Assembly (NCBI GenBank): GCA_023512375.1 | Contig: JAILZS010000002.1 | Span: 2,659-66,658 of the forward strand | Length of the DNA stretch: 64,000 nt | DNA from: Bacillota bacterium | GTDB taxonomy: Bacteria; Bacillota; Sulfobacillia; JAJZYS01; JAILZS01 | Reading direction: 5' to 3' | Notes under the pieces: model-generated | Told to the model about the DNA's origin: nothing | The model's database searches: none | Seen by the model: only the letters and a program-made list of their open reading frames with translations | Position numbers and translations under genes: made by a program | In this document: in pieces, positions 1 through 56,618 of the stretch | How the letters are laid out: every line of letters begins with the position of its first letter | Position numbering within the stretch: position 1 is the first letter of the stretch

Positions 1-681
1 CGGCCGGTCGGTGAGCTCCTCCCACGTGTCGCCGCCGTCCACACTGCGGAACACGCCGCTTCCCGGTCCTCCGCTCACCAGCGTCCAAGGGCGGCGGTGG
101 GCGTCCCACAAGGTGGCGTACAGGATGTTCGGGCGCACGGGGTCCATGGCCAGGTCGATGGCGCCGGTGTGGTCGTCGCGGTACAGCACGCGCTCCCACG
201 TGCGGCCGCCGTCGCGGCTGCGGAAGACGCCGCGCTCCTCGCTCGGCCCGTACACATGCCCGAACACCGCCGCGTACACGAGGTCCGGATCGCGCGGGTG
301 GACGCGGACGCGGGCGATGTGCCGGCTGTCCGGTAGGCCGCGGTGCTGCCAGGTGAGGCCGCCGTCGAGCGAGCGCCACACGCCGTTGCCGGCCACGACG
401 TTGCCCCGGATGCAGGACTCCCCGGTGCCGACGTACAGCACCGAGGGATCGGCGGCGGCGACGGCGATGGCGCCCACGGAGGCGGCGGTCATCTGGCCGT
501 CCGTCACGTTGCGCCAGCTGTGGCCGGCGTCGTCGGTGCGCCACACCCCGCCCGCGGCGGCGCCGAAGTAGAAGGTGCGCGGCCGGCTGGGATCGCCCGC
601 CACGGCCACGCTGCGCCCGCCCCGGAAGGGGCCGATGAGGCGCCACGGCGCCCGGGCGAGAAGTTCGCTTGGCATGTCCAT
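1..681 (-). CDS. BNR/Asp-box repeat protein (sortilin/Ycf48-like, glycosyl-hydrolase-like beta-propeller), N-terminal part; the gene runs off the window start
   Basis: The minus-strand reading frame from an ATG at 679-681 is MDMPSELLARAPWRLIGPFRGGRSVAVAGDPSRPRTFYFGAAAGGVWRTDDAGHSWRNVTDGQ...GVFRSRDGGRTWERV...GVFRSVDGGDTWEEL. It has repeated S/T-x-D-G-G-x-T-W Asp-box motifs, is preceded by GGAGGAACGGAGC, and has no stop before the window edge. The ORF track does not list it. Confidence 0.5.
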   Translation of the reverse strand, partial: MDMPSELLARAPWRLIGPFRGGRSVAVAGDPSRPRTFYFGAAAGGVWRTDDAGHSWRNVTDGQMTAASVGAIAVAAADPSVLYVGTGESCIRGNVVAGNGVWRSLDGGLTWQHRGLPDSRHIARVRVHPRDPDLVYAAVFGHVYGPSEERGVFRSRDGGRTWERVLYRDDHTGAIDLAMDPVRPNILYATLWDAHRRPWTLVSGGPGSGVFRSVDGGDTWEELTDRP

Positions 682-720
682 GCTCCGTTCCTCCCCTTGC
701 GGCCGCGCGGCGGCGCCCCC

Positions 721-1597
721 CTACCCCGGCAGGGCGAGGCGCCGAAGCCAGTCGCCGAAGAAGTTGATGGCCAGCGACACGACGAGTAGGCTCACGCCGG
801 GAAAGACCATGAGCCACCAGGCGGTGTAGAAGTAGTTCTCACCCTCGGCCAGCATGTTGCCCCACGCCGGGGTGGGCGGCTGCACACCGAACCCCAGGTA
901 GCTCACCGTGGCCTCGGCGATCATGAACTGCGACACCTGCAGCGTGCCGAGGACCAAGACCGGCGCCAGGACGTTGGGGATCACGTGGCGGACGATGATG
1001 TGTGCGGGTGAGGCGCCGCTGGCAACCGCTGCGGTGACGTAGTCCAGGTGCTTGACGCGCAACACCTCGCCGCGCGTCAGGCGGGCGAACATGGCCCAAC
1101 CCGAGACCACCAGGCTGATGATGATGTTCTTCACCCCGAAGCCGAGGACGGCGTTCACGGTGAGCACGAGCAGGATGAACGGGAAGCTCAGCTGGACGTC
1201 GACGACGCGCATGATCACCGTGTCCAGCCAGCCGCCGAAGTAGCCCGACACGCTGCCGAGCAGAAGCCCGATGCCGACCGCGCTGGCCGCCCCCACCCCG
1301 CCCACGAGCAGGGAGACGCGCGCGCCGTAGATGATGCGCGACAGCTCGTCGCGCCCCAGGTCGTCGGTACCCAGGAGGTGATGGGGGGTGAGCGGCGGCT
1401 TGAGGATGTTGAGGAAGTCGACGGCCGTGGGTCCGTAGGGCGCCACCGCGGGGGCGAAGACGGCGGCGAAGACGGCCGCCAAGAGCACCACCAGGGCGAC
1501 CAGGGCCACGGGCCGGCGCACGAGATGGCGCCAGAGGTGGACGAGGGCGCCCGGCGGCGCCGGCGCCGCCTGCGGCAAGCTGGGCTGTGCGGGGGCG
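721..1597 (-). CDS. Oligopeptide/dipeptide ABC transporter permease (DppC/OppC family)
   Basis: The C-terminal 290 aa of ORF 721..2331 show a TM1 helix followed by LLGTDDLGRDELSRIIYGARVSLLVG...EATVSYLGFGVQPPTPAWGNML, the DppC/OppC signature. The start was reset to a GTG preceded by GAGGGGGG, 19 nt after the upstream permease stop. Confidence 0.8.
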
Positions 1598-1616
1598 AGC
1601 ACGCGGGTACCCCCCT

Positions 1617-2570
1617 CTACGTGTAGTGGATGCGCGGGTCGATGGCGGCGTAGAGGATATCCACCGCCAGGTTGGTGACCGAGTACACGGCGGAGATGAA
1701 GAACACCCCCGCCTGCACGATGGTGAAGTCGCGGTTCAGGAGGGCGTTGAGGAGCAGTCGCCCCAGCCCCGGCCAGCTGAAGATGGTCTCCGTCACCACC
1801 GCGCCGCCGAGCAGGGTGGCGAGGTTGAGGCCGACCACGGTGACGAGGGGGATGAGCGAGTTGCGCAGGGCGTGCACGACCAGCACGCGCGCCGGCGTCG
1901 CCCCCTTGGCGCGCGCCGTGCGGATGTAGTCCTGGCCCAGCGCCTCCGCCATGGAGGCGCGCGTCAGGCGCAGGAAGGCGGCCATGGTGTAGGTGGAGAG
2001 GGTGACCACGGGCAGGATGTAGCTGGAGAAGCCCTCCCGCCCCGAGGGCGGCACGAGGCGCAGGTCGACGGCGAAGACGAGGATGAGGAGCAGGCCGAGC
2101 CAGAAGATCGGCATGGACTGGAGCGCGATCACGAGGAGCGACACCAGGTTGTCGAGCCATCCGTCGGGACGCATGGCCGCCCACACCCCGAGGGGGACGC
2201 TGATCGCCAGGGAGAGGGCGAGGGAGAGCACGGCCAGGGCGGCCGTGGCCGGGAGATGGCCCAGGACCAACCCCATGGCGCTCGCCCGGTAGGCGAGGGA
2301 CTGGCCGAAATTGCCGTGCAGGGCCTGCCACAGGAACGTGAGGTACTGCTGCCAGAGCGGGCGGTCGAAGCCGAACTCGTGCGCGAACTGGCTCAGGCTG
2401 GTCTTGGAGACATTCATGGGCACGAACAGCGCCGCCGGGTTGCCGGTCATGCGCAGGATGAAGAAGACGGCGGTCAGGGAGAGGAAGACGACCACCACCA
2501 CGTGGCCCAAGCGGGTGAGGATGTAGCGCTGCGTAGCCCTTCCCCCCTCGGCGCGGCGCGAATGGGGCAA
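1617..2570 (-). CDS. ABC transporter permease (DppB/OppB family)
   Basis: 317 aa with RYILTRLGHVVVVVFLSLTAVFFILRMTGNPAA... and ...LRNSLIPLVTVVGLNLATLLGGAVVTETIFSWPGLGRLLLNAL, a binding-protein-dependent transport inner-membrane component. Confidence 0.85.
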   Translation of the reverse strand: MPHSRRAEGGRATQRYILTRLGHVVVVVFLSLTAVFFILRMTGNPAALFVPMNVSKTSLSQFAHEFGFDRPLWQQYLTFLWQALHGNFGQSLAYRASAMGLVLGHLPATAALAVLSLALSLAISVPLGVWAAMRPDGWLDNLVSLLVIALQSMPIFWLGLLLILVFAVDLRLVPPSGREGFSSYILPVVTLSTYTMAAFLRLTRASMAEALGQDYIRTARAKGATPARVLVVHALRNSLIPLVTVVGLNLATLLGGAVVTETIFSWPGLGRLLLNALLNRDFTIVQAGVFFISAVYSVTNLAVDILYAAIDPRIHYT

Positions 2571-2625
2571 AGCGACGGCCGCACGCCGCGCGCGCGCGGC
2601 GCCCGGCGTGCGGCGGCGGTGCGGG

Positions 2626-4170
2626 TCAGCCGACGGGGTGGGCGTCGAACAGGTCGATCTCCTCGTCCGGCCGCGGCTGCCAGTGCAGCCACTTCACGAC
2701 GCCGTACACGTCGTCCTGCTGCCACAGGAAGATCCACGGTGCGAGCTGTTGGATCTTCACCTGCACGGCGTTCCAGTCGGCCTTCTGCGCCGCCAGGGTG
2801 GTGGCCGTCTCGGCCTTGGTGATGAGCGCGGTCAGGGCCGGGTCGTTGAAGCCGCTGTAGGTTTGGTTTCCCTCGAACAGGTAGCCGAGGGTGTCCTGCG
2901 GGTAGAGCGAGGGGCCCCAGCCGAGGTAGAACATGTCGCCGGCCGTGCGGTTGATGATCTTCGTCAGGTGGACCGCCCAGGCGTCGGAGATCACGTGCAC
3001 GTGGATGCCGATCTGGCCGAGCTCGGCGGCCACCGCCTGGCAAACCTCGCTGTCCATGGGATAGCGCCCGTTCGAGCAACTGAACGTGAGGTTGAGGTCC
3101 TGCGGCTTGTAGCCGGCCTCCTCGATGAGCTTCTTCGCCAGCGAGGGGTTATAGGTGTAGGGGCGGATGGCCGGGTCGAAGCCCGAGTTCGTGCGCGGCA
3201 GGGCGCCGGGGTCGCGGATGGCGTGCCCGTCCATGACGTCGCGGATGAGGAGCGGCACGTTCACCGCGTAGTTGAGGGCTTGGCGCACCTTCACGTTGTC
3301 GAGCGGTCCCGGCTTGAGGTTGACAAGGGCGATGTAGTCGAAGCGGGCGCTCGGCTCGAGGATGACGCGGGCGCCGTTGGCGCGCTGCACCACGGGGATG
3401 TCCGTGTACGGCAGCTCCTCGATGATGTCGACCTTACCGGCGAGGAAGGCGGACAGGCGGGCGCTGAAGTCCGGGATGACGTCGAACACGACGTTCTGGA
3501 TGGCGGGCTTGCCGCGCCAGTAGTGGGGGTTGGCCTTGAGCACAAGGTTCTGGCCCAAGGTCTGGCTCACGAACTCGTACGGGCCGGTGCCGATCGGGTG
3601 GCTGGCGAAGTACTTCAGCCCATGCTGCTGGATGTACTTGGGGGGCATGACCAGGAACTCCGTGGCCAGGAGGTAGGGGAAGAACGGCACGAACCGGCTC
3701 AGGTGGAAGACGACGGTGTACGGGTTGGGCGCCGTCACAGACTTCACGGCGCTGAAGTAGGCGGCCACCGCCGACTTGTTGGCGGGGTTCTGGATGTAGG
3801 ACATGGTGAACTGGACGGCGGAGGCGTCGAACGGCTCGCCGTCCTGGAAGCGCACGCCATGCCGAAGGGTGAGGGTCCAGGTGGTGGGCGAGGTGGCCTT
3901 CCAGCTCGTGGCCAGCCAGGGGATGACGGCCTCGGTCTTGCCGTCGAGGGCGAGCAGGGGGTCGTAGATCTGCTGCAGCTGCCAGTTCGTGGTGGCGTCC
4001 ACGATCGTGTCGGGGATGAGGCTCAACGCGTCGGAACCGATGGCCACCGACACGGTGTCGTGGCCAGAGGCGGCGCGGTGGACCGCGGCCGACGCCGACG
4101 CGGGCAGGAGCATCGAAACCGCCAGCGCGGCCATGGCGCCGCGTGCCGCAAGGGATCTCCCGGTATGCAT
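2626..4170 (-). CDS. ABC transporter substrate-binding protein, family 5 (peptide/nickel)
   Basis: 514 aa with an N-terminal signal peptide (MHTGRSLAARGAMAALAVSMLLPASASA) and SBP family-5 motifs (TNWQLQQIYDPLLALDG, PYEFVSQTLGQNLVLKANPHYWRGKPA). RBS GGGAGGT lies before the ATG. Confidence 0.85.
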   Translation of the reverse strand: MHTGRSLAARGAMAALAVSMLLPASASAAVHRAASGHDTVSVAIGSDALSLIPDTIVDATTNWQLQQIYDPLLALDGKTEAVIPWLATSWKATSPTTWTLTLRHGVRFQDGEPFDASAVQFTMSYIQNPANKSAVAAYFSAVKSVTAPNPYTVVFHLSRFVPFFPYLLATEFLVMPPKYIQQHGLKYFASHPIGTGPYEFVSQTLGQNLVLKANPHYWRGKPAIQNVVFDVIPDFSARLSAFLAGKVDIIEELPYTDIPVVQRANGARVILEPSARFDYIALVNLKPGPLDNVKVRQALNYAVNVPLLIRDVMDGHAIRDPGALPRTNSGFDPAIRPYTYNPSLAKKLIEEAGYKPQDLNLTFSCSNGRYPMDSEVCQAVAAELGQIGIHVHVISDAWAVHLTKIINRTAGDMFYLGWGPSLYPQDTLGYLFEGNQTYSGFNDPALTALITKAETATTLAAQKADWNAVQVKIQQLAPWIFLWQQDDVYGVVKWLHWQPRPDEEIDLFDAHPVG

Positions 4171-4233: not shown

Positions 4234-5391
4234 CTAGCCCACGATCTGGTCCTCCAGCCGCTTGGACCGGTGGGTGAGCACCTCGGGCACGTCGCCCACG
4301 ACCACCGTGTCGTCGTGCCGGAAGCCCCCGAGGCCGTAGATGTAGATGCCGGGCTCGGCCGAGAACACCTGCCCGGCCCGCAGGGGTTCGTAGTTGAACG
4401 CCATGTCGGCCGGCGCCTCGTGCCCGGAGATGCCCACCCCGTGACCGGTGCGGTGCATGATGTGGTCCCCGAGCCCTGCCGCCTCGATCACCGCCTGCGC
4501 CGCCTCGTCGGGGGCGCAGGTGGGCGCCCCCGTGCGCATGGCGGCGACGGCGGCGGCGTTGGCCTCCACGGCGGTGGCGTAGGCGTGCGCCTGGCGGTCG
4601 TCGGGAGGGCCGACGAACCATGTGCGCTCGTTCTCCACCACGTAGCCGTTGAAGCGGACGATGAGGATGTCGACCAGGACGTCGCCGCGCCGGATGCGCA
4701 TGCCGCACTCCGCCCCCGTACCGTGGGGCGATGCGGCGGCGGGGCCGGCCAGGGTGCTCACCCGCACCTCCACCTTCTCGCCCCCGTGGCGGCGCGCCGC
4801 TTCCGCCAGGACGAGGCGGGTCACCTCCTGGTCGAGGTCGGACACCAGCATGTCGGCGCGCACGCTCTCCGCGTAGCGGTCCTGTCCCCAGTCGGAGAGG
4901 GCTGCGGCGGCCCGCATGAGGTCGAGCTCCCGCGCCGACTTCACCAGCCGCATGTCGCGCAATAGGTGGCCGGCCAGGTGCCAGTCCGCCTCGGCCAACC
5001 CCTCCCGCAGGGGAGAGAGGGTGGGCTCGAGGGCGTCGGCGGCCAGGCGGCGCGGCCGCACCCCGTACCGCGCCAGCCCCAGGCGCACGAGCTTGGTCCA
5101 GTCCAGGACGCTCGCCGTGCGGTGGGAGCTGCGCGGGTGCTCGGTGTAGTGGACCACGTCCGCCACGGCGAGCGAGCCGCGCTCCCGCGCCATGCGGATA
5201 TGGTGGGTGGACAGCTCGTCCAGGACCATGAAGGCGCCGCCGCCGCGCGTCACGACGCAGGCGGCGGGCCGCTCCCAGGGCGCCACGTCGAGGAGGAAGC
5301 CGGACACGTAGTAGATGTTGTCGGCCTGGGTGACCACGAACGCGTCCAGGTCGTGCTCCTCCAGGTAGGCCACGATGCGGCGGTGTCGCAT
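4234..5391 (-). CDS. M24 family metallopeptidase (Xaa-Pro aminopeptidase/creatinase-like)
   Basis: Creatinase N-domain plus M24 pita-bread fold (HRTGHGVGISGHEAP, EPGIYIYGLGGFRHDDTVVV). The start was moved to the internal ATG (MRHRRIVAYLEEH) behind AGGAAG. Confidence 0.8.
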   Translation of the reverse strand: MRHRRIVAYLEEHDLDAFVVTQADNIYYVSGFLLDVAPWERPAACVVTRGGGAFMVLDELSTHHIRMARERGSLAVADVVHYTEHPRSSHRTASVLDWTKLVRLGLARYGVRPRRLAADALEPTLSPLREGLAEADWHLAGHLLRDMRLVKSARELDLMRAAAALSDWGQDRYAESVRADMLVSDLDQEVTRLVLAEAARRHGGEKVEVRVSTLAGPAAASPHGTGAECGMRIRRGDVLVDILIVRFNGYVVENERTWFVGPPDDRQAHAYATAVEANAAAVAAMRTGAPTCAPDEAAQAVIEAAGLGDHIMHRTGHGVGISGHEAPADMAFNYEPLRAGQVFSAEPGIYIYGLGGFRHDDTVVVGDVPEVLTHRSKRLEDQIVG

Positions 5392-9517: not shown

Positions 9518-10603
9518 CTACGAACCCAGGCCGGCGACCGCGGCGGGCGTCTCGAGCACGTCGAGGAGGGCTGGGGCGAGACAGCGCCCCAGGGCAGCGG
9601 CCTCCACCAGGAAGGCGTCGTGCCCGTACTCGGAGGCGAACGGCAGGTACGTCGCGGCTTGCCCGCGCTGCCGGGCCGCGGTGGCGCTCTCCCGCACCCG
9701 CTCGGCAGGGAAGAGGATGTCGGAGGTGATGCCCACGTACACGATGGGCGCAGGCGGGGCCGAGGGGGCGGGCGAGACGGGGGCGGTCACGTCGTGGCTG
9801 TCCATGGCGCGCAGGAGCACGAGGTAGCTCAGGGCGCAGAACCGGTCCGTCAGGCGCTTTCCCTGGTGGCGCAGGTAGCCCTCGACCGCGAAGGACGGCC
9901 CGTCCAGGTCGAGCGGCTGCGCCCCCGGGATGAGGCGGCGGCCGAACTGCCGCTCCATGGACCGGTCGCCGCGGTAGGTGATCATGGCGATCTCCCGCGC
10001 CCGCGCCAGCCCCGGTGTGGGGCCGGGGCGCCCGGGGTCGAAGGCGGGGTCGGAGACGATGGCGTTGCGCTGCACCGCGTTCCAGGCCAGCGCCTGCGGC
10101 AGCATGCGGTCGGTGGCGCCGATGGCCACCGCCTTCGCCACCCGGTCGCCGTACAGCCGCGCCCACTCCGCCGCCTGCATGCCGCCGAGCGAGCCACCGA
10201 TCACCAATCGCAGGCGGCGCACGCCCAGCCTCTCCAAGGCGAGGGCCTCAAGGCGCACCATGTCGCGCACCGTCACCACGGGGAAGCCGAGGCCGAAGGG
10301 GCGCCCGTCCTCCCCCGCGTCCCCCGGCCCGGTCGTGCCGTAACAGGAACCCAGGACATTCATGCACACGACCGCCAGCCGCGTCGGGTCGAGCAGGCGC
10401 CCGGGGCCCACCAGGGGCTCCCACCAGCCGCGTGCGCCGTCCACGGCGCCCGCCCGGGCGTCGGCGGTGAGGGGGTGGGTGACGAGCACCGCCTCCTCCC
10501 CCAGCTCGCCCCATACTCCGGCCCGCACCCGCACCCGCTCGAGCCGGCCGCCCGCCTCCAGGTCGAAGGGGCCGAGCGCCAGGTCGAGCACGCGCCCGTC
10601 CAT
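9518..10603 (-). CDS. metX: Homoserine O-acetyltransferase
   Basis: About 361 aa alpha/beta hydrolase (MDGRVLDLALGPFDLEAGGRLERVRV..., GGSLGGMQAAEW). It lies immediately downstream of metY. The 811-aa track ORF is an alternate-frame fusion. Confidence 0.85.
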   Translation of the reverse strand: MDGRVLDLALGPFDLEAGGRLERVRVRAGVWGELGEEAVLVTHPLTADARAGAVDGARGWWEPLVGPGRLLDPTRLAVVCMNVLGSCYGTTGPGDAGEDGRPFGLGFPVVTVRDMVRLEALALERLGVRRLRLVIGGSLGGMQAAEWARLYGDRVAKAVAIGATDRMLPQALAWNAVQRNAIVSDPAFDPGRPGPTPGLARAREIAMITYRGDRSMERQFGRRLIPGAQPLDLDGPSFAVEGYLRHQGKRLTDRFCALSYLVLLRAMDSHDVTAPVSPAPSAPPAPIVYVGITSDILFPAERVRESATAARQRGQAATYLPFASEYGHDAFLVEAAALGRCLAPALLDVLETPAAVAGLGS

Positions 10604-10611: not shown

Positions 10612-11922
<1,311 letters not shown>

Positions 11923-11950
11923 CGTCGTCCTCCTTCGGGGGCCGCCCGTA

Positions 11951-12112
11951 CAACGAAGGACGCCCGTCGCATGTGGAAGGGCGTCCCGGTACGTCGCACC
12001 CTCCCCTTTATCTCTCAGCGCCCGCGCGCTGCAGGAGTTGGCACCTTCGGCGACGAGTCGCCGGGTTGCCGGGCTTCATCGGGCCAGTCCCTCCGCCTCT
12101 CTCGATAACGGG
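11951..12112 (-). promoter_or_regulatory. SAM-I (S-box) riboswitch with intrinsic terminator, leader of metY-metX
   Basis: The minus-strand sequence CGTTATCGAGAGAGGCGGAGGGACTGGCCCGATGAAGCCCGGCAACC...GGTGCCAACTCCTGCAGCG...CTGAGAGATAAAGG matches the SAM-I consensus (P1 UUAUCgAGAG / GAGAUAAA, GGAGGGAcuGGCCCgaUGAa, GCAACC, GGUGCcAAuUCCuGCAG). A hairpin GGGACGCCC...GGGCGTCC plus TTCGTTGT terminator follows at 11951..11988. Confidence 0.8.
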
Positions 12113-12493
12113 TCGAGGTCCTATTCGGTTGTGTGCCGTACCGTACCAAGGGCCGGGGCCTTCTGTCAATGGGCCCGCCCGGGCATGGGGGCCGCCGGCC
12201 GGGCTGGCGCCGGCCGTACCCCCCCGCCGCTCCCTTGCCTGGGACGCGCCGACCGGGTCCGGGGAGAGCGCCCAGCCGGAGGGAGTCGGATGCTCCGGCA
12301 ACCGTGCCCGGATCGCGCCCCGGGTGCGGGGAGGATGGTCGGCCGGGTAGGCGTGTTGGCCGCGGCGGTCGGGGTGGCGGCGGCGCAGGCGCGCTGCCGG
12401 ACGGGCGCAGGAAGCCACCGGCCCCCTCGCCGCCGTCCGGGCGGGCGCCGTCGGGCGCGGACGGCCGGGCCGCCCTGGCGGCCCCGTCTCCGG

Positions 12494-13135
12494 TCAGCCC
12501 CCTTCCCCGGGGTCGGCCAAGAGGGCCTTAACCTCGGCGTCGTCCACGGGCGGGAAGCTGGCGTAGTAGGGGCTCACCGCCTGAAAGCCGTGCGGCACGG
12601 CCAGGAAGACCAGCTCGTCCGCCTCCGGCGCCAACAGGTTACGTGCCGAGGGCGACGCCACCGGTGCCGCCACGAGCACAGGAGAGGCGCCCAGGGCCCG
12701 CAGCCGGCGCACCGCCGCCAGGGCGGTGAGACCCGTGGCGAGGCCGTCGTCCACGACCACCGCCGTCCGCCCGGCCAGCGCCTCCGCCCAGGCGGCGCCG
12801 TACGCCGCCTGCAGGCGGTCGGCCTCACGCCGCGCAGCCTCGGCCCGGCGCCCGAGGGCGCTCTGGGGCAGCGGCGGAGCGGGCACGGCAGCTTGGTTCC
12901 AGACCACCTCGCCGCCGGCCGCCACCGCCCCCAGCGCGAACTCCGGGTCGAGGGGATCGGACACCTTGCGCACGGCCAAGGCGGCGAACGGACAGGCGAG
13001 GACGCGCGCCGCCGCCCAGGCCACCACCACCCCGCCTCGCGCCAGCCCCACCGCCAGCGCCGCCCCCGCGGCCGGCAAGAGCGGGCGAAGCGCCGCCCCC
13101 AGGCGCTCGCCCGCGTCGGTGCGATCGGCGAACAA
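12494..13135 (-). CDS. Phosphoribosyltransferase-domain protein (COG1926-like)
   Basis: About 213 aa with a PRTase type-I fold (VVVDDGLATGLTALAAVRRLRALGA...LVFLAVPHGFQAVSPYY). TTG start behind GGAAGGAGGGG. Confidence 0.6.
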   Translation of the reverse strand: MFADRTDAGERLGAALRPLLPAAGAALAVGLARGGVVVAWAAARVLACPFAALAVRKVSDPLDPEFALGAVAAGGEVVWNQAAVPAPPLPQSALGRRAEAARREADRLQAAYGAAWAEALAGRTAVVVDDGLATGLTALAAVRRLRALGASPVLVAAPVASPSARNLLAPEADELVFLAVPHGFQAVSPYYASFPPVDDAEVKALLADPGEGG

Positions 13136-44890: not shown

Positions 44891-46408
44891 GTGGGCAGCA
44901 AGGTCGTGCGCGGGGCGGCGATCCTCCTGGTCGCCGGCGTGGCGGCGCGGGTGCTCGGCTTCTTCTACCGTGCCTACCTGGCGCGCGCCATCGGGGCCCA
45001 GGGCATGGGCCTCGTCGCCATGGCCTACCCCCTGTGGGGGATGGCCCTCAACCTCGCCTCCATGGGCATCCCGGTGGCCGTGGCCAAGGTGGTGGCGGAG
45101 CGCGCCGCCCTGCCCGAGCGCTCCCTCGAGAACGTCCTGCGCTTCGCCTTCGCCTTCGTCCTCGCCGCCGGGACGCTCCTCGCCGTCGCCCTGGTGTTCT
45201 CCGCCCCCTTCCTCACCCACCGCCTGCTCTCCGACCCGCGCTCCCTCTACCCCCTGCTGGCGGCCGTGCCCCTCGTCCTCGTCATCCCCGCCTCCCTCGT
45301 CCTGCGCGGCTACTTCCAGGGCCTGCAGGAGATGCACCCCCTGGCGGTCGCCACGGTGCTGGAGCAGGTGGTGCGGATCGCCGGCGTCGTCTACCTGGTG
45401 CGCTACTTCCTCCCCTACGGTCTGGCATGGGGGGCGGTGGGGGCGATGGTGGCCGTCGCCCTGGGGGAGGTGTCGGGCCTGGTCGTCCTCCTCGTCTTCT
45501 ACCGTCTCACGCCGCGCCCCCTCCGCCCCCCGCGCGAGCGCCGGGACGCCTTCGGCCCTACGGCGCGGGAGGTCCTCTCCCTCGGCACGCCGGTGACCGG
45601 CACGCGCATCGTCGGCTCGTTCACCGAGATCGCCGACGCCACCATCATCCCCCGCCGCCTGGAGGTCGCGGGCTTCACCCGCGACGCCGCCACCGCCTTC
45701 TACGGCAACCTGTCCGCCATGGCCATGCCCCTCGTCTACTTCCCCACCGTCCTCACCGGCGCCCTCGCCTCTGCCCTCATGCCGGCCATCTCCGAGGCGG
45801 AGGCGGCGCACGGCATGGAGGCGGTGCGCCGGCGCACGCAGCAGGCGCTGCACCTCACGTTCCTGGTCGCCTTCCCCGCCGCCACCCTGTACGTGGCCCT
45901 CGGCCACGAGCTGGGGCAGGTGATCTACGGCCAACGCCAGGTAGGGGCCATGCTCGTCCCCCTCTCCCTGGCCGCCCCCTGCCTGTACCTCGACAACACC
46001 CTCGCCGCCGTCCTGCGCGGCCTGGGTCGCCCCGCCCTGCCCATGCGCAACGGCCTGGTGGGCAGTTTCGTGCGCCTCGCCCTCATCTTCGCCCTCACCG
46101 GAGTGGTGGGGAGCGGCGCCAGCCTGGTGCTCTTCGCCTTCGCCCTCGACATCGCCGTCACGTGCGCCCTCGACACCCTGTCGGTGTGGCGCCTGGTGCG
46201 GCCGCGCCTGGCCTGGGGACCGTCGGTCGGCCTCCCCCTGGCGGCCTCCGCCCTCATGGCCCTCGCCTGCCGCGTGGGACTGGGCGTCCTGGGCTCGGCC
46301 GCGCGCGCCGCCCCACCCGCCGTGGCGACGGCGGTGGCGGCCGGCGTGGCGGTGTACGCCGCCGTCGTCTACCTCGCGGGCGGCCTTCGGGCCGCGGCGG
46401 CGTCGTGA
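44891..46408 (+). CDS. spoVB: Stage V sporulation protein B-like polysaccharide-biosynthesis/MOP-family flippase
   Basis: Closely resembles B. subtilis SpoVB (e.g. VLRGYFQGLQEMHPLAVATVLEQVVRI against SpoVB VLRGYFQGKQNMNPLAISQVLEQVVRI); 505 aa with 14 predicted TMs. Confidence 0.75.
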   Translation: MGSKVVRGAAILLVAGVAARVLGFFYRAYLARAIGAQGMGLVAMAYPLWGMALNLASMGIPVAVAKVVAERAALPERSLENVLRFAFAFVLAAGTLLAVALVFSAPFLTHRLLSDPRSLYPLLAAVPLVLVIPASLVLRGYFQGLQEMHPLAVATVLEQVVRIAGVVYLVRYFLPYGLAWGAVGAMVAVALGEVSGLVVLLVFYRLTPRPLRPPRERRDAFGPTAREVLSLGTPVTGTRIVGSFTEIADATIIPRRLEVAGFTRDAATAFYGNLSAMAMPLVYFPTVLTGALASALMPAISEAEAAHGMEAVRRRTQQALHLTFLVAFPAATLYVALGHELGQVIYGQRQVGAMLVPLSLAAPCLYLDNTLAAVLRGLGRPALPMRNGLVGSFVRLALIFALTGVVGSGASLVLFAFALDIAVTCALDTLSVWRLVRPRLAWGPSVGLPLAASALMALACRVGLGVLGSAARAAPPAVATAVAAGVAVYAAVVYLAGGLRAAAAS

Positions 46409-47382
46409 CGGCCGCGCGCCGCCGCGCCGCCGCCCTGGCCGCTGCGCTGGTCGTAGCGGCGGCGGGGTTCGCCCTTCTGCGCCGGCCCCCGGCGCGGCCG
46501 CCCCTCCCCTGCCCCCACCTGGCGGCCGTCCTCGCCGTACCGTCCCTGGAGGCGGCCCCCGTCCTCCTGGCGCGCCTCTCCCTGCCGGGCGGCGTCTGCC
46601 GCATCGCCGCCGCGGCGGAGGCGGCGGACACCGCCCCTCTCGCCGTGCTGCCGGGAGACGCCTTCCGCCCCGCCTCCGCCGCCCGCACCCGCTGGCTCCC
46701 GTTCCTGCTCGTGGCCCAGCGCGCCGCCTCCCTGCTCGTCGCGCGCGCCCCCGTGGCGCCGCACTTCCTGTGGCACTCCCTGTCGGGGCAGACGGTCGTC
46801 CTCTCGCCCGCGGCGGGCGACTTGGGGGGCGTCGTCGTGACGGCCATGGTGGCCGTGCACGCCGTCGACGGCGTCGCCCTGTTGCGCGGCCTGGGCGAGA
46901 GAGCCTTCGTCGCCGGCACGGGGGCCTACGCCGAGCTGCCCCTGTGGCCGGCCGAGGCCCTCCTCCTGGCCGGGCGCGCCCACCCGGCGGCCGACCTCGC
47001 CATCCAGGGCGGGCCCCTGCCCGCCGCCGTGCTCGCCGCCCGTCCCGCCTTCGCCCGCCGCCACCCGCGCCTTCTGGCCGCCATCGCCGTCGCCGTGTAC
47101 GGGGCCGAGTTGCGCCTGGACCGCCTCGGCGGCCGCCTGGCCGACGCCTGGCCGACGCCCCTTGCGCCCGCCGCCCGCCGCGCCCTGGCCGCCGCCCTGG
47201 CGCGCGCCCGCTACGCCGGCGTCTGGCCCTCGGACCCGCGCCTCGACGCCGCCCTGTTCACGCGCCTGGACGTTCTCCTGCAGGGGGCGGGCCTGGTCCC
47301 CGTCGGCCCGCCCCCCGCCGCCCTCGCCTGGCCGGCGGAGGCGGCCATGCGCCGCCTCGCCCCCGTCCCCCAGGCGGGCTAG
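46405..47382 (+). CDS. Hypothetical protein with N-terminal membrane anchor, translationally coupled to spoVB
   Basis: The GTG start overlaps the spoVB TGA (GTGA). It has an N-terminal TM (AAALAAALVVAAAGFALL), is about 325 aa, and has no motif I recognise. Confidence 0.35.
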   Translation: MTAARRRAAALAAALVVAAAGFALLRRPPARPPLPCPHLAAVLAVPSLEAAPVLLARLSLPGGVCRIAAAAEAADTAPLAVLPGDAFRPASAARTRWLPFLLVAQRAASLLVARAPVAPHFLWHSLSGQTVVLSPAAGDLGGVVVTAMVAVHAVDGVALLRGLGERAFVAGTGAYAELPLWPAEALLLAGRAHPAADLAIQGGPLPAAVLAARPAFARRHPRLLAAIAVAVYGAELRLDRLGGRLADAWPTPLAPAARRALAAALARARYAGVWPSDPRLDAALFTRLDVLLQGAGLVPVGPPPAALAWPAEAAMRRLAPVPQAG

Positions 47383-47383
47383 C

Positions 47384-47875
47384 TCAGCCGGTGCGGTGGG
47401 TCATGAGGAACACCGCCCGCGCCGCCTTCCCGGGCGTCCGCCGCACCATCCTTCCCTCGCGCACAAAGCCGCTGGCGAGATAACAGCGGATGGCGCGCCG
47501 GTTGTCGGCGCGCACGCGCAGGTACACCTCCTGCACCCCGAGGGAGGCGCGGGCGTACGCCACGGCCTGGCGCACGGCCTCGCGCCCGTACCCGCGGCCG
47601 CGGGCGTCGGCCTGCCCGATGGCGATGACGAGCTCGGCCCGCCCGTCCTCCGACACGTCCACCAAGGCGGCGCCACCGATGAGGGCGCCGTCGGAGGCGC
47701 GCTCGATGCCCAGCGTGACGGGCGCGTGCGGCACGCGCCCGCCCATCCATTCGGCCACCTCCGGGTCCCGCAGCCACCGCCGCCAGGCGGCGCGATGCTC
47801 GGCCGCGCTCAAGGGCCTCAGGCGCACCCGCGCCCCGCCCTCCGCCGCCTCGCCCTCCGCGCGCCCCTGTCCCAT
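47384..47875 (-). CDS. GNAT family N-acetyltransferase (RimJ/RimL-like)
   Basis: Acetyl-CoA binding motif (IAIGQADARGRGYGREAVRQAVAYA) and ...NRRAIRCYLASGF. The start was set to an internal ATG. Confidence 0.7.
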   Translation of the reverse strand: MGQGRAEGEAAEGGARVRLRPLSAAEHRAAWRRWLRDPEVAEWMGGRVPHAPVTLGIERASDGALIGGAALVDVSEDGRAELVIAIGQADARGRGYGREAVRQAVAYARASLGVQEVYLRVRADNRRAIRCYLASGFVREGRMVRRTPGKAARAVFLMTHRTG

Positions 47876-48042
47876 GCGCCATCGATTCGCCCGCCCCCGC
47901 CCGCCTACCTTGCGCCCGGGAGCCGGTAGATGTTGGGGGCGCACCGCCCGCCCGCGCTATACTGGGACCGGTCGCGCCGGCCGGGCCGGGCCGGCGCCGC
48001 GTCGAGCGGATCCTTCGCGCCGGGGGGATGGAAGTGGCGGCG

Positions 48043-48303
48043 ATGACCCTGACGGGCGACGCGCGCACGGTGATGGAGAGCATGGGACGGTTCATGAACC
48101 GCGACTACGCGCGCGCCGTGGGAGGGGAGGACCTCTTGCGCTGGACGGGGCTCGAGCCGCGCGCGCTGGCGGAGGCGGTGCGCGCCCTGGCCGAGCGTCC
48201 CCACCCATACGTGCGGGCGGTCTTCCACCCCGACGACCCGGACCGGCTGGTGGAGGTGCGCCTCACGGTCGACGGCGAGATGTACTGCCGCTCGCGCGAC
48301 TGA
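48043..48303 (+). CDS. Small hypothetical protein (~86 aa)
   Basis: MTLTGDARTVMESMGRFMNRDYARAVGGEDLLRWTGLEPRALAEAVRALAERPHPYVRAVFHPDDPDRLVEVRLTVDGEMYCRSRD, preceded by a TTGGGG-N19-TATACT promoter-like motif and convergent with lon. Confidence 0.35.
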   Translation: MTLTGDARTVMESMGRFMNRDYARAVGGEDLLRWTGLEPRALAEAVRALAERPHPYVRAVFHPDDPDRLVEVRLTVDGEMYCRSRD

Positions 48304-48321
48304 CGGGCAACAAGGGCGTCG

Positions 48322-50730
<2,409 letters not shown>

Positions 50731-50758
50731 CGCGTTCACCCCCCGGCGATTGGCGCCG

Positions 50759-50767
50759 ATTATAGCA
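50759..50767 (-). promoter_or_regulatory. Extended -10 element TGcTATAAT upstream of lon
   Basis: The minus strand reads GTGTGCTATAATCGG about 25 nt upstream of the proposed lon TTG start. No good -35 was found. Confidence 0.35.
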
Positions 50768-50842
50768 CACGCCAACGGCCGGCCCGGCGCAAGCACAGGC
50801 GTACCCCGCGCGGCGGGTCGACGCCCGCGGTCCTAGCGGAGG

Positions 50843-52579
50843 CTACGCCCCCGGCGTCACGCCCGTCGGTCCGTCCGCCCTCTCGGCGGCACCCGCCGCC
50901 GCCGCCTCCCCTGCCCGCGCACCGACGCCGCGTGCCGCGGCGGGGCGGCGCGAGGGCCGCGCACCGGCGGGCAACAGCGCCAGGTCCAGCACCTCCTGCA
51001 GCCGCCGCACCGCCACCACGCGGATGGGCAGGGTGCGGAAGCTCTCCTGCCAGTTCTCCTCCGGCACCAGCACCGTCTGCGCCCCGGCGGTGCGGGCCGC
51101 CTCCACCTTGGCCACCACCCCGCCTACGGGGCGGACGAGGCCGCGGATGGACACCTCGCCGGTCATCGCCACCCGGTTGTCCACCGGCCGGCCGGTGAGG
51201 GCGCTGTACACGGCGGTGGCGATGCTCACGCCCGCGCTCGGCCCGTCCACGGGCATGCCGCCCGGGAAGTTGATGTGCAGGTCGTAGCGCCGCGGGTCGA
51301 CACGCAGGTAGCGCCGGAGGACCGTCAGGACGTTGTCCACCGCCCCGAGCGCCATGGAGCGGCGGCGCACCACGTGGCCGGGGCGGCCCAGCTCCTCCTC
51401 CGCCACCAGGCCGGTGACCTCCAGCCGGCCGGGAAGGCGGGCGGCCGGCTGGGCGTACGCCTCCACCTCGAGCAGAAGCCCCATGTTCGGCCCGTACACG
51501 GCCAGGCCGTTGGCGACGCCCACTTGGGGCTCCGAGGCCACGCGGCGTTCGGGGCGGGGGGAGTAGCGGCACCGCTCCACCACCCATTCCACGTCCGCCG
51601 CCGAGGTGGCGTGGCGACCCTCGCTGATGGCCAAGCCCGCGGCGATCTGCACCAAGTTGACGGCCTCGCGCCCGTTGGTGGCAAAGCGGGCCACCACCTC
51701 GAGCGCGGCCTCGTCCAGGGGGACGCCCACCCGCTCCCCTGCCTGGCGGGCGATGCGCCGCACCTCTGCCGCGCTCAGGGGGCGGAAGAAGATCTCCACG
51801 CACCGGCTGCGGATGGCAGGCGGGATCTCCTCCGGCGAACGCGTGGTGGCCCCGATGAGGCGGAAGTCGGCCGGCAGGCCGTGCTCGAACACGTCCTGGA
51901 TGTGGGAGGGGATGTTCGGGTCTTCGGACGAGTAGTAGGCGCTTTCGAGGAAGACCTTGCGGTCCTCCAGCACCTTGAGGAGCTTGTTCATCTGCACGGG
52001 GTGAAGCTCGCCGATCTCGTCGATGAACAGGACGCCGCCGTGGGCCTTCGTCACCGCGCCCGCCTTGGGCTGGGGGATACCGGCCATGCCGAGAGGCCCC
52101 GCGCCCTGGTAGATGGGGTCGTGAACGCTACCGATCAGGGGGTCAGCGATCCCGCGCTCGTCGAAGCGGGCGGTGGTTGCGTCGATCTCCACGAACTTGG
52201 CGTCGGGGCGGAAGGGGGTGTTGGGCCCCCGCTTGGCCTCCTCCAGCACGAGGCGGGCGGCGGCGGTCTTGCCCACCCCCGGCGGCCCGTACACGAGCAC
52301 GTGCTGAGGGTTGGGACCGCACAGGGCGGCCCTCAGGGCCCGGATCCCCTCCTCCTGCCCGACCACCTCGGCGAAGCTTCTCGGGCGCGTGCGCTCCGAC
52401 AGGGGTTCGGTGAGGGAGATCTCGCGCAGGCGGCGCAGCTTCTCAAGCTCCTTGCGCGACTCCCGCTCCACGGCCGCCCGGCTCGCCTGCTGGCCGCGCA
52501 ACAGGTTCCAGAAGTACAGCCCGATCACGACGGCGAAGAAGAACTGGACAAACGTGAGCGCGCCGCCCGCCCAATCCAT
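50843..52579 (-). CDS. lonB: LonB-type ATP-dependent protease (sporulation protease LonB-like)
   Basis: N-terminal TM (ALTFVQFFFAVVIGLYFW), AAA+ (GPPGVGKTAAARL), Lon protease domain (DGPSAGV...K), about 578 aa. It lies between clpX and lon as in Bacillus. Confidence 0.8.
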   Translation of the reverse strand: MDWAGGALTFVQFFFAVVIGLYFWNLLRGQQASRAAVERESRKELEKLRRLREISLTEPLSERTRPRSFAEVVGQEEGIRALRAALCGPNPQHVLVYGPPGVGKTAAARLVLEEAKRGPNTPFRPDAKFVEIDATTARFDERGIADPLIGSVHDPIYQGAGPLGMAGIPQPKAGAVTKAHGGVLFIDEIGELHPVQMNKLLKVLEDRKVFLESAYYSSEDPNIPSHIQDVFEHGLPADFRLIGATTRSPEEIPPAIRSRCVEIFFRPLSAAEVRRIARQAGERVGVPLDEAALEVVARFATNGREAVNLVQIAAGLAISEGRHATSAADVEWVVERCRYSPRPERRVASEPQVGVANGLAVYGPNMGLLLEVEAYAQPAARLPGRLEVTGLVAEEELGRPGHVVRRRSMALGAVDNVLTVLRRYLRVDPRRYDLHINFPGGMPVDGPSAGVSIATAVYSALTGRPVDNRVAMTGEVSIRGLVRPVGGVVAKVEAARTAGAQTVLVPEENWQESFRTLPIRVVAVRRLQEVLDLALLPAGARPSRRPAAARGVGARAGEAAAAGAAERADGPTGVTPGA

Positions 52580-52667
52580 AGGCCGTCGCCTCCCCCGCAT
52601 ATGGCGAGGGTAGCTTCCCCATCGCGGCGTATCCTAATCGCCCCATGCCTTCCATCGGCCGATCCGC

Positions 52668-52955
52668 CTAGGACCCCACGTCCACGCGCCGGAGGCGATC
52701 CTCCCCAGCGGGCGTGAGGCGGTAGTGGCGCTGCGGGAGGCCGTTTCCGCCCCGCACCCACTCGGACTCCACCAGGCCCTCCGCCATGAGGCGCCCGAGG
52801 ACCTCGACGATCGTCACGTCGTACAGGAAGATGCCCCGCGTCTTGGCCGCCGTGGCCAGGTACTCCGTGGGGTGGGGACGGTCCCGCAGGAGGCGGAGGA
52901 GCGCCAGGTCGGCGCTCTGCCCGGTGGTGTGGATGCGGTCGGTCGCGGTCGCCAT
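52668..52955 (-). CDS. PadR-family transcriptional regulator
   Basis: 95 aa winged HTH (DLALLRLL...GYEL...[15 protein letters not shown]...[10 protein letters not shown]). RBS GGGGGAGAGGG. Confidence 0.6.
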
Positions 52956-52986
52956 CGCCCTCTCCCCCTACCGCCCGACTCGGGCC

Positions 52987-54255
<1,269 letters not shown>

Positions 54256-54304
54256 CTCCCCACCCCTCTTTCCGGCTGGCGCCGTGATCGGTCTTGGGGC
54301 GTGG

Positions 54305-54907
54305 TCAACGGCCGCCGGAGAGGGTGCGCGGCGTCAGCACCTCGTCGATGAGGCCATACGTGCGGGCCTCCTCGGGAGCCATCCAGTAGTCGCGCTCCAC
54401 GTCCTGCGCCACCTTTTCGAACGGCTGCCCGCTCGCCTCGGCCAGGATGCGGGTGGTGAGCTCCTTCTCCCGCAAGAGCTCCTTCATGGTGATCTCCACA
54501 TCGGTGAGCTTGCCGCCCAGGTTGCCCACCCACGGCTGGTGGATCATGACGCGGGAGTTCGGCAGGGCCTTGCGCTTACCCTTGGTACCCCCCGCCAGGA
54601 GAATGGCCGCCATGGACGCCGCCATGCCCACGCACACGGTCTCCACCTCGGCCCGGATGAAGCGCATCGTGTCGAAGATGCCCAGGCCGGCGTGCACGCT
54701 CCCCCCGGGGGAGTTGATGTACAGGTGCACGTCCTTCTCCGGATCGTCGCTGTCGAGGAAGAGGAGCTGGGCGATGACGACGTTGGCGACCTGGTCGTCG
54801 ATCTCCGTCCCGAGGAAGATGATGCGGTCCTTGAGCAACCGGCTGTAGATGTCGTACGCGCGCTCGCCGCGGTTGGTCTGCTCGATGACGTACGGGACCA
54901 CCGTCAC
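54305..54907 (-). CDS. clpP: ATP-dependent Clp protease proteolytic subunit ClpP
   Basis: About 200 aa ([23 protein letters not shown]..., [19 protein letters not shown], catalytic Ser/His context). GTG start behind GGAGAGAAGGGAGG; the track ORF is extended upstream. Confidence 0.95.
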
Positions 54908-54935
54908 CGCCTCCCTTCTCTCCGTTCTCCGAAGG

Positions 54936-56282
54936 TTACCCGGCTCCGTGGTCGCCGGACGCCGCCTCGGTCGCCTCCGCCTCGCCCTCGGGCGCCTCGC
55001 CCTCGCCCTCGTCCGCCGGGGCGTAGATGTCCGCCAAGAAGGCGAGGGCTTTCTCCCGCAGGAGCACGTCGCGGATGTAGGCGCGTTGGCCTCGGCTGAG
55101 GGTTCGCTGCCCATCCCTCCGCCCCTTCTCCGGTCGGCCCAGCAGGCGGTCCGCAGCGGCGGCGATCTCTCCCTCCAGGGGCTCGAGACCCTCCCGCTCG
55201 GCCAGCGCCTCCAGCACCATGTTGCGCTTGGCGCGGCGCTCGGCCGCCGGGCGCATCTCCTCCCGCAACGCCGCCTCGTCCTTGTTGGCGGCCGCCAGGT
55301 AGGCCTCCACGGGAACACCCTGCTGCCGCAGGCTGAGCGCGAACTCCTCCCACAGGATATCCGACTGGCGTTCCACCAATGGCTTGGGAACCGCGACCGC
55401 CACGCGGTCCACGAGCGCGTCGACGGCGGCGTCCAGGCGCGCCTCCCGCTCCCGCCGGCGCTCCTGCGCCTCCAGGTAGGCGCGCGCCTTCGTGCGCAGG
55501 TCGGCCACCGACTCCGCCCCCGCGTGCCGGGCCAAGGCGTCGTCGAGGGGCGGGAGTTCGCGCTCCACCACGCCCAGCACGCGGATGCGCGTCAGCGCCT
55601 CCTCGCCCGCGTGCGCGGGGGCGGTGGCGGGCACCGTCCACACCACCTCGCGCGTCTCGCCTACCGGCGATCCGTTCAGGGCGGCCGCCAGGCCGGCGAT
55701 GTCGCCGTCCCCCGCCTGCATGTCCAGGACGGTCCGGCGCGGTCCCTCGACCACCTCGCCCCCGATCTCGGTGGTCACCTCTGCGCGGACGAGCGACTGC
55801 TCCCCCACCCGGTCGGCCTCCCGCTCCCGGGCGTGCTGGCGCCGGTACTCCTCGAGGAAGGCGTCCACCGCCTGCTCGTCCACCTCGCGCCGCTCCACCT
55901 CCACCCGGAGGTCGCGCACGTCGCCCAGTTCGATCGGCGGCCGCACGGCCACCCTGGCCCTATAGGTGAGAGGCTGGCCCTCGACGATGGCCGGATCCCC
56001 CTCCAGGTCGGCGCTTCCCACCGGCCGAAGCCCCTCCTGCTCGACCGCCTCGTCGAACGTCTCCTCCACGAGCCGGCCGAGGGCTTCCTGCAGGATGGCG
56101 TCGCGTCCGAGGAAGGCTTCGACGATCGGGCGCGGCGCCTTGCCGCGGCGGAAGCCGGCGAAGGCATAGCGCTGACCCAGCCGGCGCACGGCCTCCTCGA
56201 CCGCGCGCTGGGCGCGTTCCGCCTCCACCTCCACCGTCACGAGCGCCTCGTCGGGTTGGGTCCGCTCCACCGTCACCTTCAC
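54936..56282 (-). CDS. tig: Trigger factor
   Basis: About 448 aa with a ribosome-binding N-domain ([20 protein letters not shown]...), a PPIase domain, and a C-domain. GTG start behind GGAGGG. Confidence 0.9.
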
Positions 56283-56333
56283 CGTTCGACCCTCCGTTTG
56301 GCCGCAAGCCCTTGCCGTACCGCGTCGTCCATA

Positions 56334-56461: not shown

Positions 56462-56470
56462 GCGAACCTC

Positions 56471-56547: not shown

Positions 56548-56618
56548 AAGGGGCCCGGACGACCCCCGGCGGAGGCGGTGCGCCGAGGCGCGCCCCAAAG
56601 ATCCGTAGACACAAAAAC

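What the first reader, a model, noticed from the sequence alone, without database searches (positions are those of the whole stretch)
11951..12112. SAM-I (S-box) riboswitch plus terminator controlling metY-metX, not represented in the ORF track
The 5' leader of metY on the minus strand matches the SAM-I aptamer almost base-for-base (P1 UUAUCGAGAG...GAGAUAAA, GGAGGGACUGGCCCGAUGAA, GCAACC, GGUGCCAAUUCCUGCAG). It is followed by an 8-9-bp GC hairpin and a U-rich tract right before the metY RBS. Methionine biosynthesis here is therefore SAM-controlled by transcription attenuation, a Firmicute trait that supports the taxonomic inference. Several spurious ORFs (12008..12418 and 11973..12350) overlap it and should be discarded.
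Basis: partly seen in the sequence, partly recalled or inferred. Interest (0 to 1): 0.5.

Follow-up and report, generated by a model that had tools for sequence, protein, structure and literature searches.

The report
SAM-I riboswitch before metY-metX operon
This is an ordinary S-adenosylmethionine-sensing RNA switch (SAM-I / S box) in the leader of a methionine-synthesis operon; it almost certainly stops transcription early when SAM is plentiful, and it is a textbook case, not a discovery.

Summary
Rfam RF00162 (SAM-I) matches window 12111..12005 (- strand) over its full length at 91.6 bits (gathering score 44.4, E 1.4e-20). All 48 strongly conserved consensus positions are matched. Downstream lie a 9-bp G+C hairpin (11987..11957), a weak U-rich tail (UUCGUUGU, 11957..11950), an SD (11936..11929), then metY (11922..10612) and metX (10603..9518).

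A 9-bp antiterminator (12005..11997 with 11983..11975) competes with both P1 and the terminator. It is the predicted ground state before the terminator's 3' strand is made. Eight related metagenomic leaders keep the aptamer, hairpin and antiterminator layout.

Transcription attenuation by SAM is therefore the best-supported mechanism. The caveats are a sub-canonical U tract, no significant covariation in the expression platform, and no ligand or transcription test.

The two overlapping ORFs are spurious: their GC is flat across codon positions and they have no Pfam hit.

The Firmicute assignment is right, but it rests on spore-type LonB, SpoVB and an identical NCBI "Bacillota bacterium" MetY, not on the riboswitch. 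SAM-I also occurs in other phyla. This is a known kind and of low interest.

The parts
12140..12169 (-). Predicted sigma-A type promoter: -35 TTGACA (12169..12164), 18-nt spacer, extended -10 TGG-TACGGT (12148..12140)
   Evidence: Read from the sequence. TTGACA and the TA...T of the -10 are invariant in 9 aligned leaders while the spacer varies (A1). The tRNA promoter in the same window also has an 18-nt spacer. The consensus scan did not call it because the -10 matches only 3 of 6. No transcription start was mapped.
12112..12133 (-). Conserved 5' leader before P1 (CACAACCGAAUAGGACCUCGAC). CCUC (12118..12115) and CCC (12112..12110) are predicted to extend P1 by pairing with GGGGAGG (12006..12000).
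   Evidence: Nearly invariant in 7 relatives. The extension appears in the aptamer-enforced fold. In L085 a CG->UU change keeps pairing. There is no compensatory change, so this part is inferred.
12005..12111 (-). SAM-I (S box) aptamer with P1-P4 four-way junction
   Evidence: RF00162 at 91.6 bits (gathering score 44.4), E 1.4e-20, full-length model match. 48 of 48 conserved positions are matched, and UGGC and GCCA (the pseudoknot partners) are present.
11975..12005 (-). Antiterminator hairpin: GGGAGGGUG (12005..11997) pairs with CGCCCUUCC (11983..11975)
   Evidence: 9 bp, -14.4 kcal/mol. It is the unconstrained MFE when the transcript ends before the terminator's 3' strand: -63.9 against -59.6 kcal/mol with P1 enforced. 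It overlaps 6 nt of the extended P1 and 5 nt of the outer terminator stem, plus the inner stem. Both strands are invariant in 6 relatives, so there is no covariation. The equivalent pairing exists in L091, L092 and L007.
11957..11987 (-). Terminator hairpin: GGGACGCCC (11987..11979) pairs with GGGCGUCCU (11965..11957), with inner UCC/G(C)GA pairs
   Evidence: -17.1 to -18.5 kcal/mol; 1 of 2000 shuffles folds as stably. 98.6% of cells are paired in 6 relatives against 42-65% for slid controls. 4 of 12 pairs vary, all keeping pairing, but this is not significant against shuffles.
11950..11957 (-). U-rich tail UUCGUUGU (5 U of 8)
   Evidence: Read from the sequence. Relatives range from U7 (L092) to no U tract (L090, L091).
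11929..11936 (-). Shine-Dalgarno GAAGGAGG, 6 nt before the ATG
   Evidence: Read from the sequence. Predicted accessibility is the same in both switch states.
10612..11922 (-). metY, O-acetylhomoserine sulfhydrylase (homocysteine synthase)
   Evidence: TIGR01326 at 606 bits (cut-off 495). 100% identical to NCBI MCL6594718.1.
9518..10603 (-). metX, homoserine O-acetyltransferase; starts 8 nt after the metY stop
   Evidence: TIGR01392 at 330 bits and NF001209 at 327 bits, against a cut-off of 331; start position. metY-metX adjacency is kept in all relatives, while the next gene differs.

Best explanation
This is a canonical SAM-I (S box) riboswitch with OFF logic that controls the metY-metX operon by premature transcription termination.

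Transcription is predicted to start a few bases after the -10 element, near 12133.

When SAM is scarce, P1 is not held shut. The G-rich segment just 3' of P1 (GGGAGGGUG, 12005..11997) pairs with CGCCCUUCC (11983..11975) as soon as that is transcribed. This occupies the 5' half of the terminator, and RNA polymerase reads through into metY-metX.

When SAM is bound, the four-way junction closes P1. P1 is probably lengthened by CCC/CCUC of the conserved 5' leader pairing with GGGGAGG. The G-rich segment is then sequestered, the hairpin 11987..11957 forms, and transcription stops at the U-rich tail 11957..11950. Homocysteine and methionine synthesis falls.

Shown here: aptamer identity, gene content, existence and conservation of the hairpin, and mutually exclusive pairings with suitable energies.

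Inferred: SAM binding, the P1 extension, the transcription start, and termination at a tail with only 5 U in 8.
For: Aptamer: RF00162 at 91.6 bits, full length; 48 of 48 conserved positions matched.

Genes: metY and metX family matches.

Relatives: all eight distinct related leaders (MetY 69-97% identical) carry RF00162 upstream of metY-metX at 85-93 bits, or about 61 bits where the contig end cuts the aptamer.

Terminator: much more stable than shuffles (1/2000). 98.6% paired across 6 relatives with only pair-preserving changes.

More distant relatives: L091, L092 and L007 have different stem sequences but the same layout of G-rich strand, hairpin and tail. L092 has a U7 tail. The Bacillus-type leaders L016, L039 and L047 have textbook terminators.

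Antiterminator: it is the MFE before the terminator's 3' strand exists, and only 4.3 kcal/mol separates it from the P1 state. That is within reach of ligand binding energy.

SD: accessibility is the same in both states, so the model gives no sign of a translational switch.

Literature: transcription attenuation is the dominant riboswitch mechanism in Firmicutes (PMC2258182).
Against: The tail UUCGUUGU is a poor U tract, and close relatives L090 and L091 have essentially none. The same window contains a canonical terminator with T5 after the tRNA operon, so the organism does use proper U tracts elsewhere.

Covariation in the terminator is not significant (161 of 500 shuffles reach it). The antiterminator never varies in the clade.

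At equilibrium the full-length leader prefers the terminator even without P1 (-78.4 against -75.2 kcal/mol). The switch must therefore be kinetic.

In DNA of 75-80% GC, G-rich and C-rich strands pair promiscuously, so thermodynamic models are weak evidence. The whole-leader fold has a z-score of only -1.1.
Confidence: 0.85

Rival explanations
1. The aptamer is a genuine SAM-I sensor, but the output is not intrinsic termination. The hairpin without a proper U tract would instead act through translation (hiding or exposing the SD through the C-rich stretch 11949..11937), through Rho, or through mRNA stability.
For: The U tract is weak or absent in the window, L090 and L091. In L091 a CUCCC-AACA-GGGGG hairpin is predicted to bury the SD when P1 is formed. 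The post-P1 G-rich strand can also pair with the C-rich stretch just before the SD in every relative. Outside Firmicutes, translational control is the commoner riboswitch output (PMC2258182).
Against: In the window, predicted SD accessibility is the same in both states: 0.11/0.71/1.0/0.67/0.67 against 0.14/0.79/0.86/0.70/0.83. The SD lies 20 nt beyond the hairpin and is not part of it. The C-rich stretch varies in sequence. The hairpin-plus-antiterminator layout is homologous to leaders with canonical terminators (L092, L007, L016, L047). The organism is a Bacillota.
Confidence: 0.12
2. The match is a decayed or chance SAM-I-like sequence with no regulatory function.
For: No experiment was done. 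The whole-leader MFE is not unusual for this base composition (z = -1.1).
Against: The score is 47 bits above the family's gathering score and every conserved position is intact. The element sits in the expected place before methionine genes. It is conserved at 85-93 bits in relatives whose flanking intergenic DNA has diverged.
Confidence: 0.02

Closest known systems
SAM-I riboswitch / S box leader (Rfam RF00162), as in Bacillus subtilis S-box genes and the Thermoanaerobacter tengcongensis metF aptamer
   Same: Full-length match to the covariance model with P1-P4. The K-turn motif GGAGGGA...GAUGAA and the pseudoknot partners UGGC/GCCA are present. It lies upstream of methionine-synthesis genes, has a terminator/antiterminator platform, and uses a GGGGAGG-type strand after P1 as the 5' half of the antiterminator. 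The same design is seen in L047, L039 and L016.
   Different: The host genome is about 76% GC. The U tract is degenerate (5 U of 8). The antiterminator hardly overlaps the core P1 (1 nt) and depends on a putative P1 extension into a conserved 5' leader. One P1 position is a G-A mismatch.
S-box-metY-metX leader of 'Clostridiales bacterium UBA8153' (locus L007)
   Same: Same gene order (S box, metY, metX). The aptamer scores 90.4 bits. Same -35 TTGACA and extended -10. The terminator hairpin 5' strand can pair with the P1 3' strand.
   Different: In L007 the antiterminator uses the P1 3' strand itself (GAUAAGAGGG:CCUUCUUAUC), and P3 is longer. MetY is only about 62% identical.
SAM-IV (RF00634) and SAM-I/IV variants of the same clan (CL00012), typical of high-GC Actinobacteria
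   Same: Same ligand, a similar binding core, and a high-GC host.
   Different: Rfam clan competition keeps SAM-I as the best match, and a normal P4 (CAGCGC-GCGG-GCGCUG) is present. SAM-IV lacks that P4 and is mostly translational (own knowledge).
S boxes with terminators upstream of metX / metIC in Geobacter and Desulfuromonas (PMC545781)
   Same: SAM-I aptamer followed by a strong hairpin, controlling direct-sulfhydrylation or acyl-homoserine genes.
   Different: Those are Proteobacteria and have a poly(T) tail. This shows that the trait is not exclusive to Firmicutes.

Membership tests
SAM-I riboswitch (RF00162) | Sequence and secondary structure match the family covariance model above the curated gathering score, over the full length (P1-P4 four-way junction) | tested here: met
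   91.6 bits against 44.4, E 1.4e-20, model positions 1-108 of 108, not truncated. It is the best of clan CL00012.
SAM-I riboswitch (RF00162) | Conserved core nucleotides (junctions, K-turn in P2, J3/4) | tested here: met
   48 of 48 upper-case consensus positions are identical. GGAGGGA / GAUGAA are present.
SAM-I riboswitch (RF00162) | Pseudoknot between the P2 loop and J3/4 | tested here: met
   Complementary UGGC (P2 loop) and GCCA (J3/4) are present at aptamer positions 26-29 and 70-73. Assigning these to the pseudoknot rests on my knowledge of the crystal structures. The covariance model does not model it.
SAM-I riboswitch (RF00162) | Located in the 5' leader of a sulfur / methionine / SAM metabolism gene, on the same strand | tested here: met
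   The aptamer ends 82 nt before the metY ATG, and metX follows.
SAM-I riboswitch (RF00162) | Binds S-adenosylmethionine selectively | not testable with these tools
   Needs in-line probing, ITC or equilibrium dialysis.
Transcription-attenuating (terminator/antiterminator) expression platform | Stable G+C-rich hairpin between the aptamer and the start codon | tested here: met
   9-bp stem, -17.1 to -18.5 kcal/mol, 1 of 2000 shuffles as stable. Kept in all relatives.
Transcription-attenuating (terminator/antiterminator) expression platform | Run of U immediately after the hairpin | tested here: inconclusive
   UUCGUUGU has 5 U of 8, interrupted. It passes the scan's tail rule, but the site was not called because of the 13-nt loop. 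Relatives range from U7 to none.
Transcription-attenuating (terminator/antiterminator) expression platform | Alternative pairing that excludes both the terminator and the ligand-stabilised P1 | tested here: met
   GGGAGGGUG:CGCCCUUCC at -14.4 kcal/mol overlaps the extended P1 and the terminator's 5' half. It is the MFE at the decision point. There is no covariation support.
Transcription-attenuating (terminator/antiterminator) expression platform | SAM-dependent premature 3' ends | not testable with these tools
   Needs in vitro transcription or Term-seq.

The most novel reading that the evidence does not exclude
In this very high-GC (about 76%), spore-former-like Bacillota lineage the S-box terminator has lost its canonical U tract. 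The strongly conserved 5' leader (12133..12112) may then be a lineage-specific part of the switch. It could act as a long-range P1 extension or anti-antiterminator that permits U-tract-poor termination, or the output could have shifted to translation or Rho, as L091 hints.
Probability: 0.12. Interest if true: 0.3.

Novelty: already known. Interest (0 to 1): 0.1.

Why it matters
It matters mainly for annotation. The region 11950..12170 should be labelled as a promoter, SAM-I riboswitch and attenuator rather than as ORFs. metY-metX can then be read as a SAM-repressed direct-sulfhydrylation operon in an uncultured, very GC-rich Bacillota lineage.

There is a small secondary point. The lineage gives a natural series of S-box terminators, from U7 to no U tract, behind an almost unchanged aptamer. 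That series could be used to ask how intrinsic termination copes with extreme GC content.

Tried and rejected
1. The genome-contig scan with MetY found no close relative (best 64% identity). It was useful only as a cross-phylum sample.

2. The metagenome contigs pattern scan (CTGRGAGATAARGGGGAGGG) returned 7 loci, of which only one (L097) is a true relative, and that contig was already held. The other six are chance matches in coding DNA.

3. RNAalifold on nine terminator segments failed because MAFFT cannot align unrelated stems. I replaced it with explicit pair counts on six alignable relatives.

4. I considered translational control through SD sequestration. Predicted SD accessibility is the same in both states for the window, so I kept it only as a minor rival.

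5. I considered pairing of the 5' leader (ACAAC..GAA..GGAC) with the terminator's 3' strand and tail (GUCCUUCGUUGU). It appears in one constrained fold, but the tails of relatives are not complementary to the conserved leader, so I rejected it as a conserved feature.

6. I considered that the 190-aa ORF called in L082/L083 upstream of the riboswitch might be part of the unit. It lies in a roughly 480-nt segment absent from the window.

7. Rodionov et al. 2004 (NAR) on S-box regulons in Gram-positive bacteria is not held in the library.

8. The generic promoter and terminator scans found nothing in 11700..12600. Both misses are explained by a -10 matching 3 of 6 and by the 13-nt loop.

Full report
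**Observation.** On the - strand, Rfam's covariance-model scan of the whole window at gathering threshold gives one riboswitch. It is RF00162 (SAM riboswitch, S box leader) at 12111..12005, scoring 91.6 bits against a gathering score of 44.4. The E-value is 1.4e-20, all 108 model positions are matched, and the hit is not truncated. The only other hits are three tRNAs.

All 48 upper-case consensus positions of the family are identical in the window. The tetranucleotides that form the P2-loop/J3/4 pseudoknot (UGGC, GCCA) are present. One P1 pair is a G-A mismatch.

The fifth differs by one base, AACUCC instead of AAUUCC, at a variable position.

**Surroundings.** The ORF at 11922..10612 (-) is metY: TIGR01326 at 606 bits against a cut-off of 495, with top equivalogs "homocysteine synthase". 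The ORF at 10603..9518 (-) is metX: TIGR01392 at 330 bits and NF001209 at 327 bits against a cut-off of 331. metX starts 8 nt after the metY stop.

A good SD (GAAGGAGG, 11936..11929) precedes the metY ATG. Upstream, a phosphoribosyltransferase-like gene ends at 12494.

At 12169..12140 there is TTGACA, an 18-nt spacer, and TGG-TACGGT. The hexamer TTGACA and the TA...T of the -10 are invariant in nine aligned leaders while the spacer varies. This is the likely promoter, although the consensus scan did not call it.

**Relatives.** MetY of the window is identical to NCBI MCL6594718.1 from a MAG labelled "Bacillota bacterium".

Protein search found a small clade of metagenomic relatives, 97, 90, 85, 84, 74 and 69% identical. 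I fetched their contigs. Every one carries RF00162 directly upstream of metY-metX. Scores are 85-93 bits, or about 61 bits where the contig end cuts the aptamer. The gene after metX differs between relatives (SNF2 helicase, Nramp, others), so metY-metX is the conserved regulated unit.

One scan of the metagenome collection with a leader pattern added nothing new.

**Expression platform.** After P1 comes a G-rich strand, then a hairpin. GGGACGCCC (11987..11979) pairs with GGGCGUCCU (11965..11957), with inner UCC/GGA-type pairs. Its energy is -17.1 to -18.5 kcal/mol, and only 1 of 2000 shuffles folds as stably. It is followed by UUCGUUGU (11957..11950).

GGGAGGGUG (12005..11997) can pair with CGCCCUUCC (11983..11975): 9 bp, -14.4 kcal/mol. 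This covers the 5' half of the terminator.

- When the transcript is cut just before the terminator's 3' strand, this antiterminator is the unconstrained MFE (-63.9 kcal/mol). Enforcing P1 costs 4.3 kcal/mol.
- With the aptamer enforced, P1 is extended by CCC and CCUC of the 5' leader pairing with GGGGAGG. This removes most of the antiterminator's 5' strand, and the terminator forms.

This is the classical OFF-switch arrangement: the default is read-through, and the ligand tips the RNA to termination.

At equilibrium the full leader prefers the terminator in any case (-78.4 against -75.2 kcal/mol). The switch would therefore have to be kinetic, as is usual for this class.

**Comparative support.** In six alignable relatives the terminator is 98.6% paired, against 42-65% for slid controls. 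Four of 12 pairs vary, always keeping a standard pair, and one has changes on both sides. This does not exceed the shuffles (161 of 500), so it is conservation rather than proven covariation.

The antiterminator strands never vary in the clade, which says nothing either way.

More distant leaders (L091, L092, L007) and Bacillus-type S boxes (L016, L039, L047) have unrelated stem sequences. They share the same order of elements and the same GGGGAGG-like strand competing for a CCCUC/CCUUC strand. L092 has a U7 tail, and the Bacillus ones have textbook terminators. I take this as good evidence that the window's hairpin is the homologue of a terminator.

**Caveats.** The tail has only 5 U in 8, and relatives L090 and L091 have essentially no U tract. 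The same window shows a canonical terminator with T5 after the tRNA operon.

I therefore tested a translational alternative. In the window the SD is predicted to be equally accessible with P1 enforced or prevented, so the model gives no support for it. In L091 an SD-hiding hairpin is predicted in the P1 state, so a mixed or shifted mechanism in parts of the clade cannot be excluded.

All thermodynamic statements are weak in DNA of 75-80% GC. The whole-leader fold is not unusual for its composition (z = -1.1).

**The two ORFs.** 12008..12418(-) and 11973..12350(+) are in the mechanical ORF list. Their GC by codon position is flat: 0.77/0.73/0.75 and 0.74/0.73/0.72. Genuine genes here show about 0.72/0.51/0.96. 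They have no Pfam match and overlap a conserved RNA.

**Taxonomic remark.** The organism is a Bacillota on independent evidence:
- a spore-type LonB (TIGR02902, 899 bits against a cut-off of 723);
- a SpoVB-like protein (352 bits against a cut-off of 372);
- the B. subtilis-like order clpX-lonB-lonA;
- the NCBI label of the identical MetY.

In my sample of 56 metY loci from many phyla, SAM-I upstream of metY occurred only in Bacillota, although metY-metX adjacency is widespread.

However, SAM-I is documented in eight other phyla (PMC3766115). S boxes with terminators precede metX in Geobacter and Desulfuromonas (PMC545781). Attenuation merely "dominates" in Firmicutes (PMC2258182). The riboswitch is consistent with the assignment but is not strong evidence for it.

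**Comparison and verdict.** This is a member of RF00162 by every feature testable in silico. Ligand binding and SAM-dependent termination were not testable. It differs from textbook cases in three ways:
- the very GC-rich context;
- the degenerate U tract;
- an antiterminator that relies on a putative P1 extension into a strongly conserved 5' leader (12133..12112), whose conservation is only partly explained.

None of this takes it outside the known kind. Interest is low. The value is correct annotation of the region and of the SAM-repressed metY-metX operon.

Noticed in passing
window 12112..12133 (-): The 5' leader between the predicted transcription start and P1 (CACAACCGAAUAGGACCUCGAC) is almost invariant in seven relatives, while the promoter spacer and the DNA upstream of the -35 diverge. 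A P1 extension explains only CCUC and CCC. The rest is unexplained.
   Followed up: partly
window 12262..12453 versus L082 1492..2159: The closest relatives (L082/L083, about 93% DNA identity over the operon) carry about 480 extra bases between the PRTase-like gene and the riboswitch. This segment includes a called 190-aa ORF with no Pfam hit and is absent from the window.
   Followed up: partly
window 44891..54255: clpX (54255..52987), spore-type lonB (52600..50843), lonA (50796..48322) and a spoVB-like gene (44891..46408) form a B. subtilis-like arrangement and endospore-former markers, in a genome of about 76% GC.
   Followed up: partly
window 56338..56736 (-): A tRNA-His, tRNA-Lys, tRNA-Leu cluster has a near-consensus promoter (TTGACA-18-TATACT) and a canonical terminator with a T5 tail. 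The organism therefore uses standard signals, which makes the weak U tract of the riboswitch terminator stand out.
   Followed up: no
L091 503..692: In this relative (MetY 74% identical) the terminator-like hairpin has no U tract, and a CUCCC-AACA-GGGGG hairpin is predicted to hide the SD when P1 is formed. This suggests possible translational control in that branch.
   Followed up: partly
L016 2817..2914 and 4455..4564; L019 likewise: Bacillus infantis has two S boxes at this locus, one before metY and a second immediately after it, presumably controlling the next gene.
   Followed up: no
window 1..4000 and 52001..64000: GC falls to 0.63-0.70 at both ends of the window, against 0.74-0.80 in the middle. 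The ends carry peptide/oligopeptide ABC-transporter-like genes and clpX.
   Followed up: no
L026 1440..1728 (-): A Eubacteriales MAG metY locus has a T-box leader nearby on the opposite strand and no SAM-I. This is an example of alternative regulation near metY in Bacillota.
   Followed up: no
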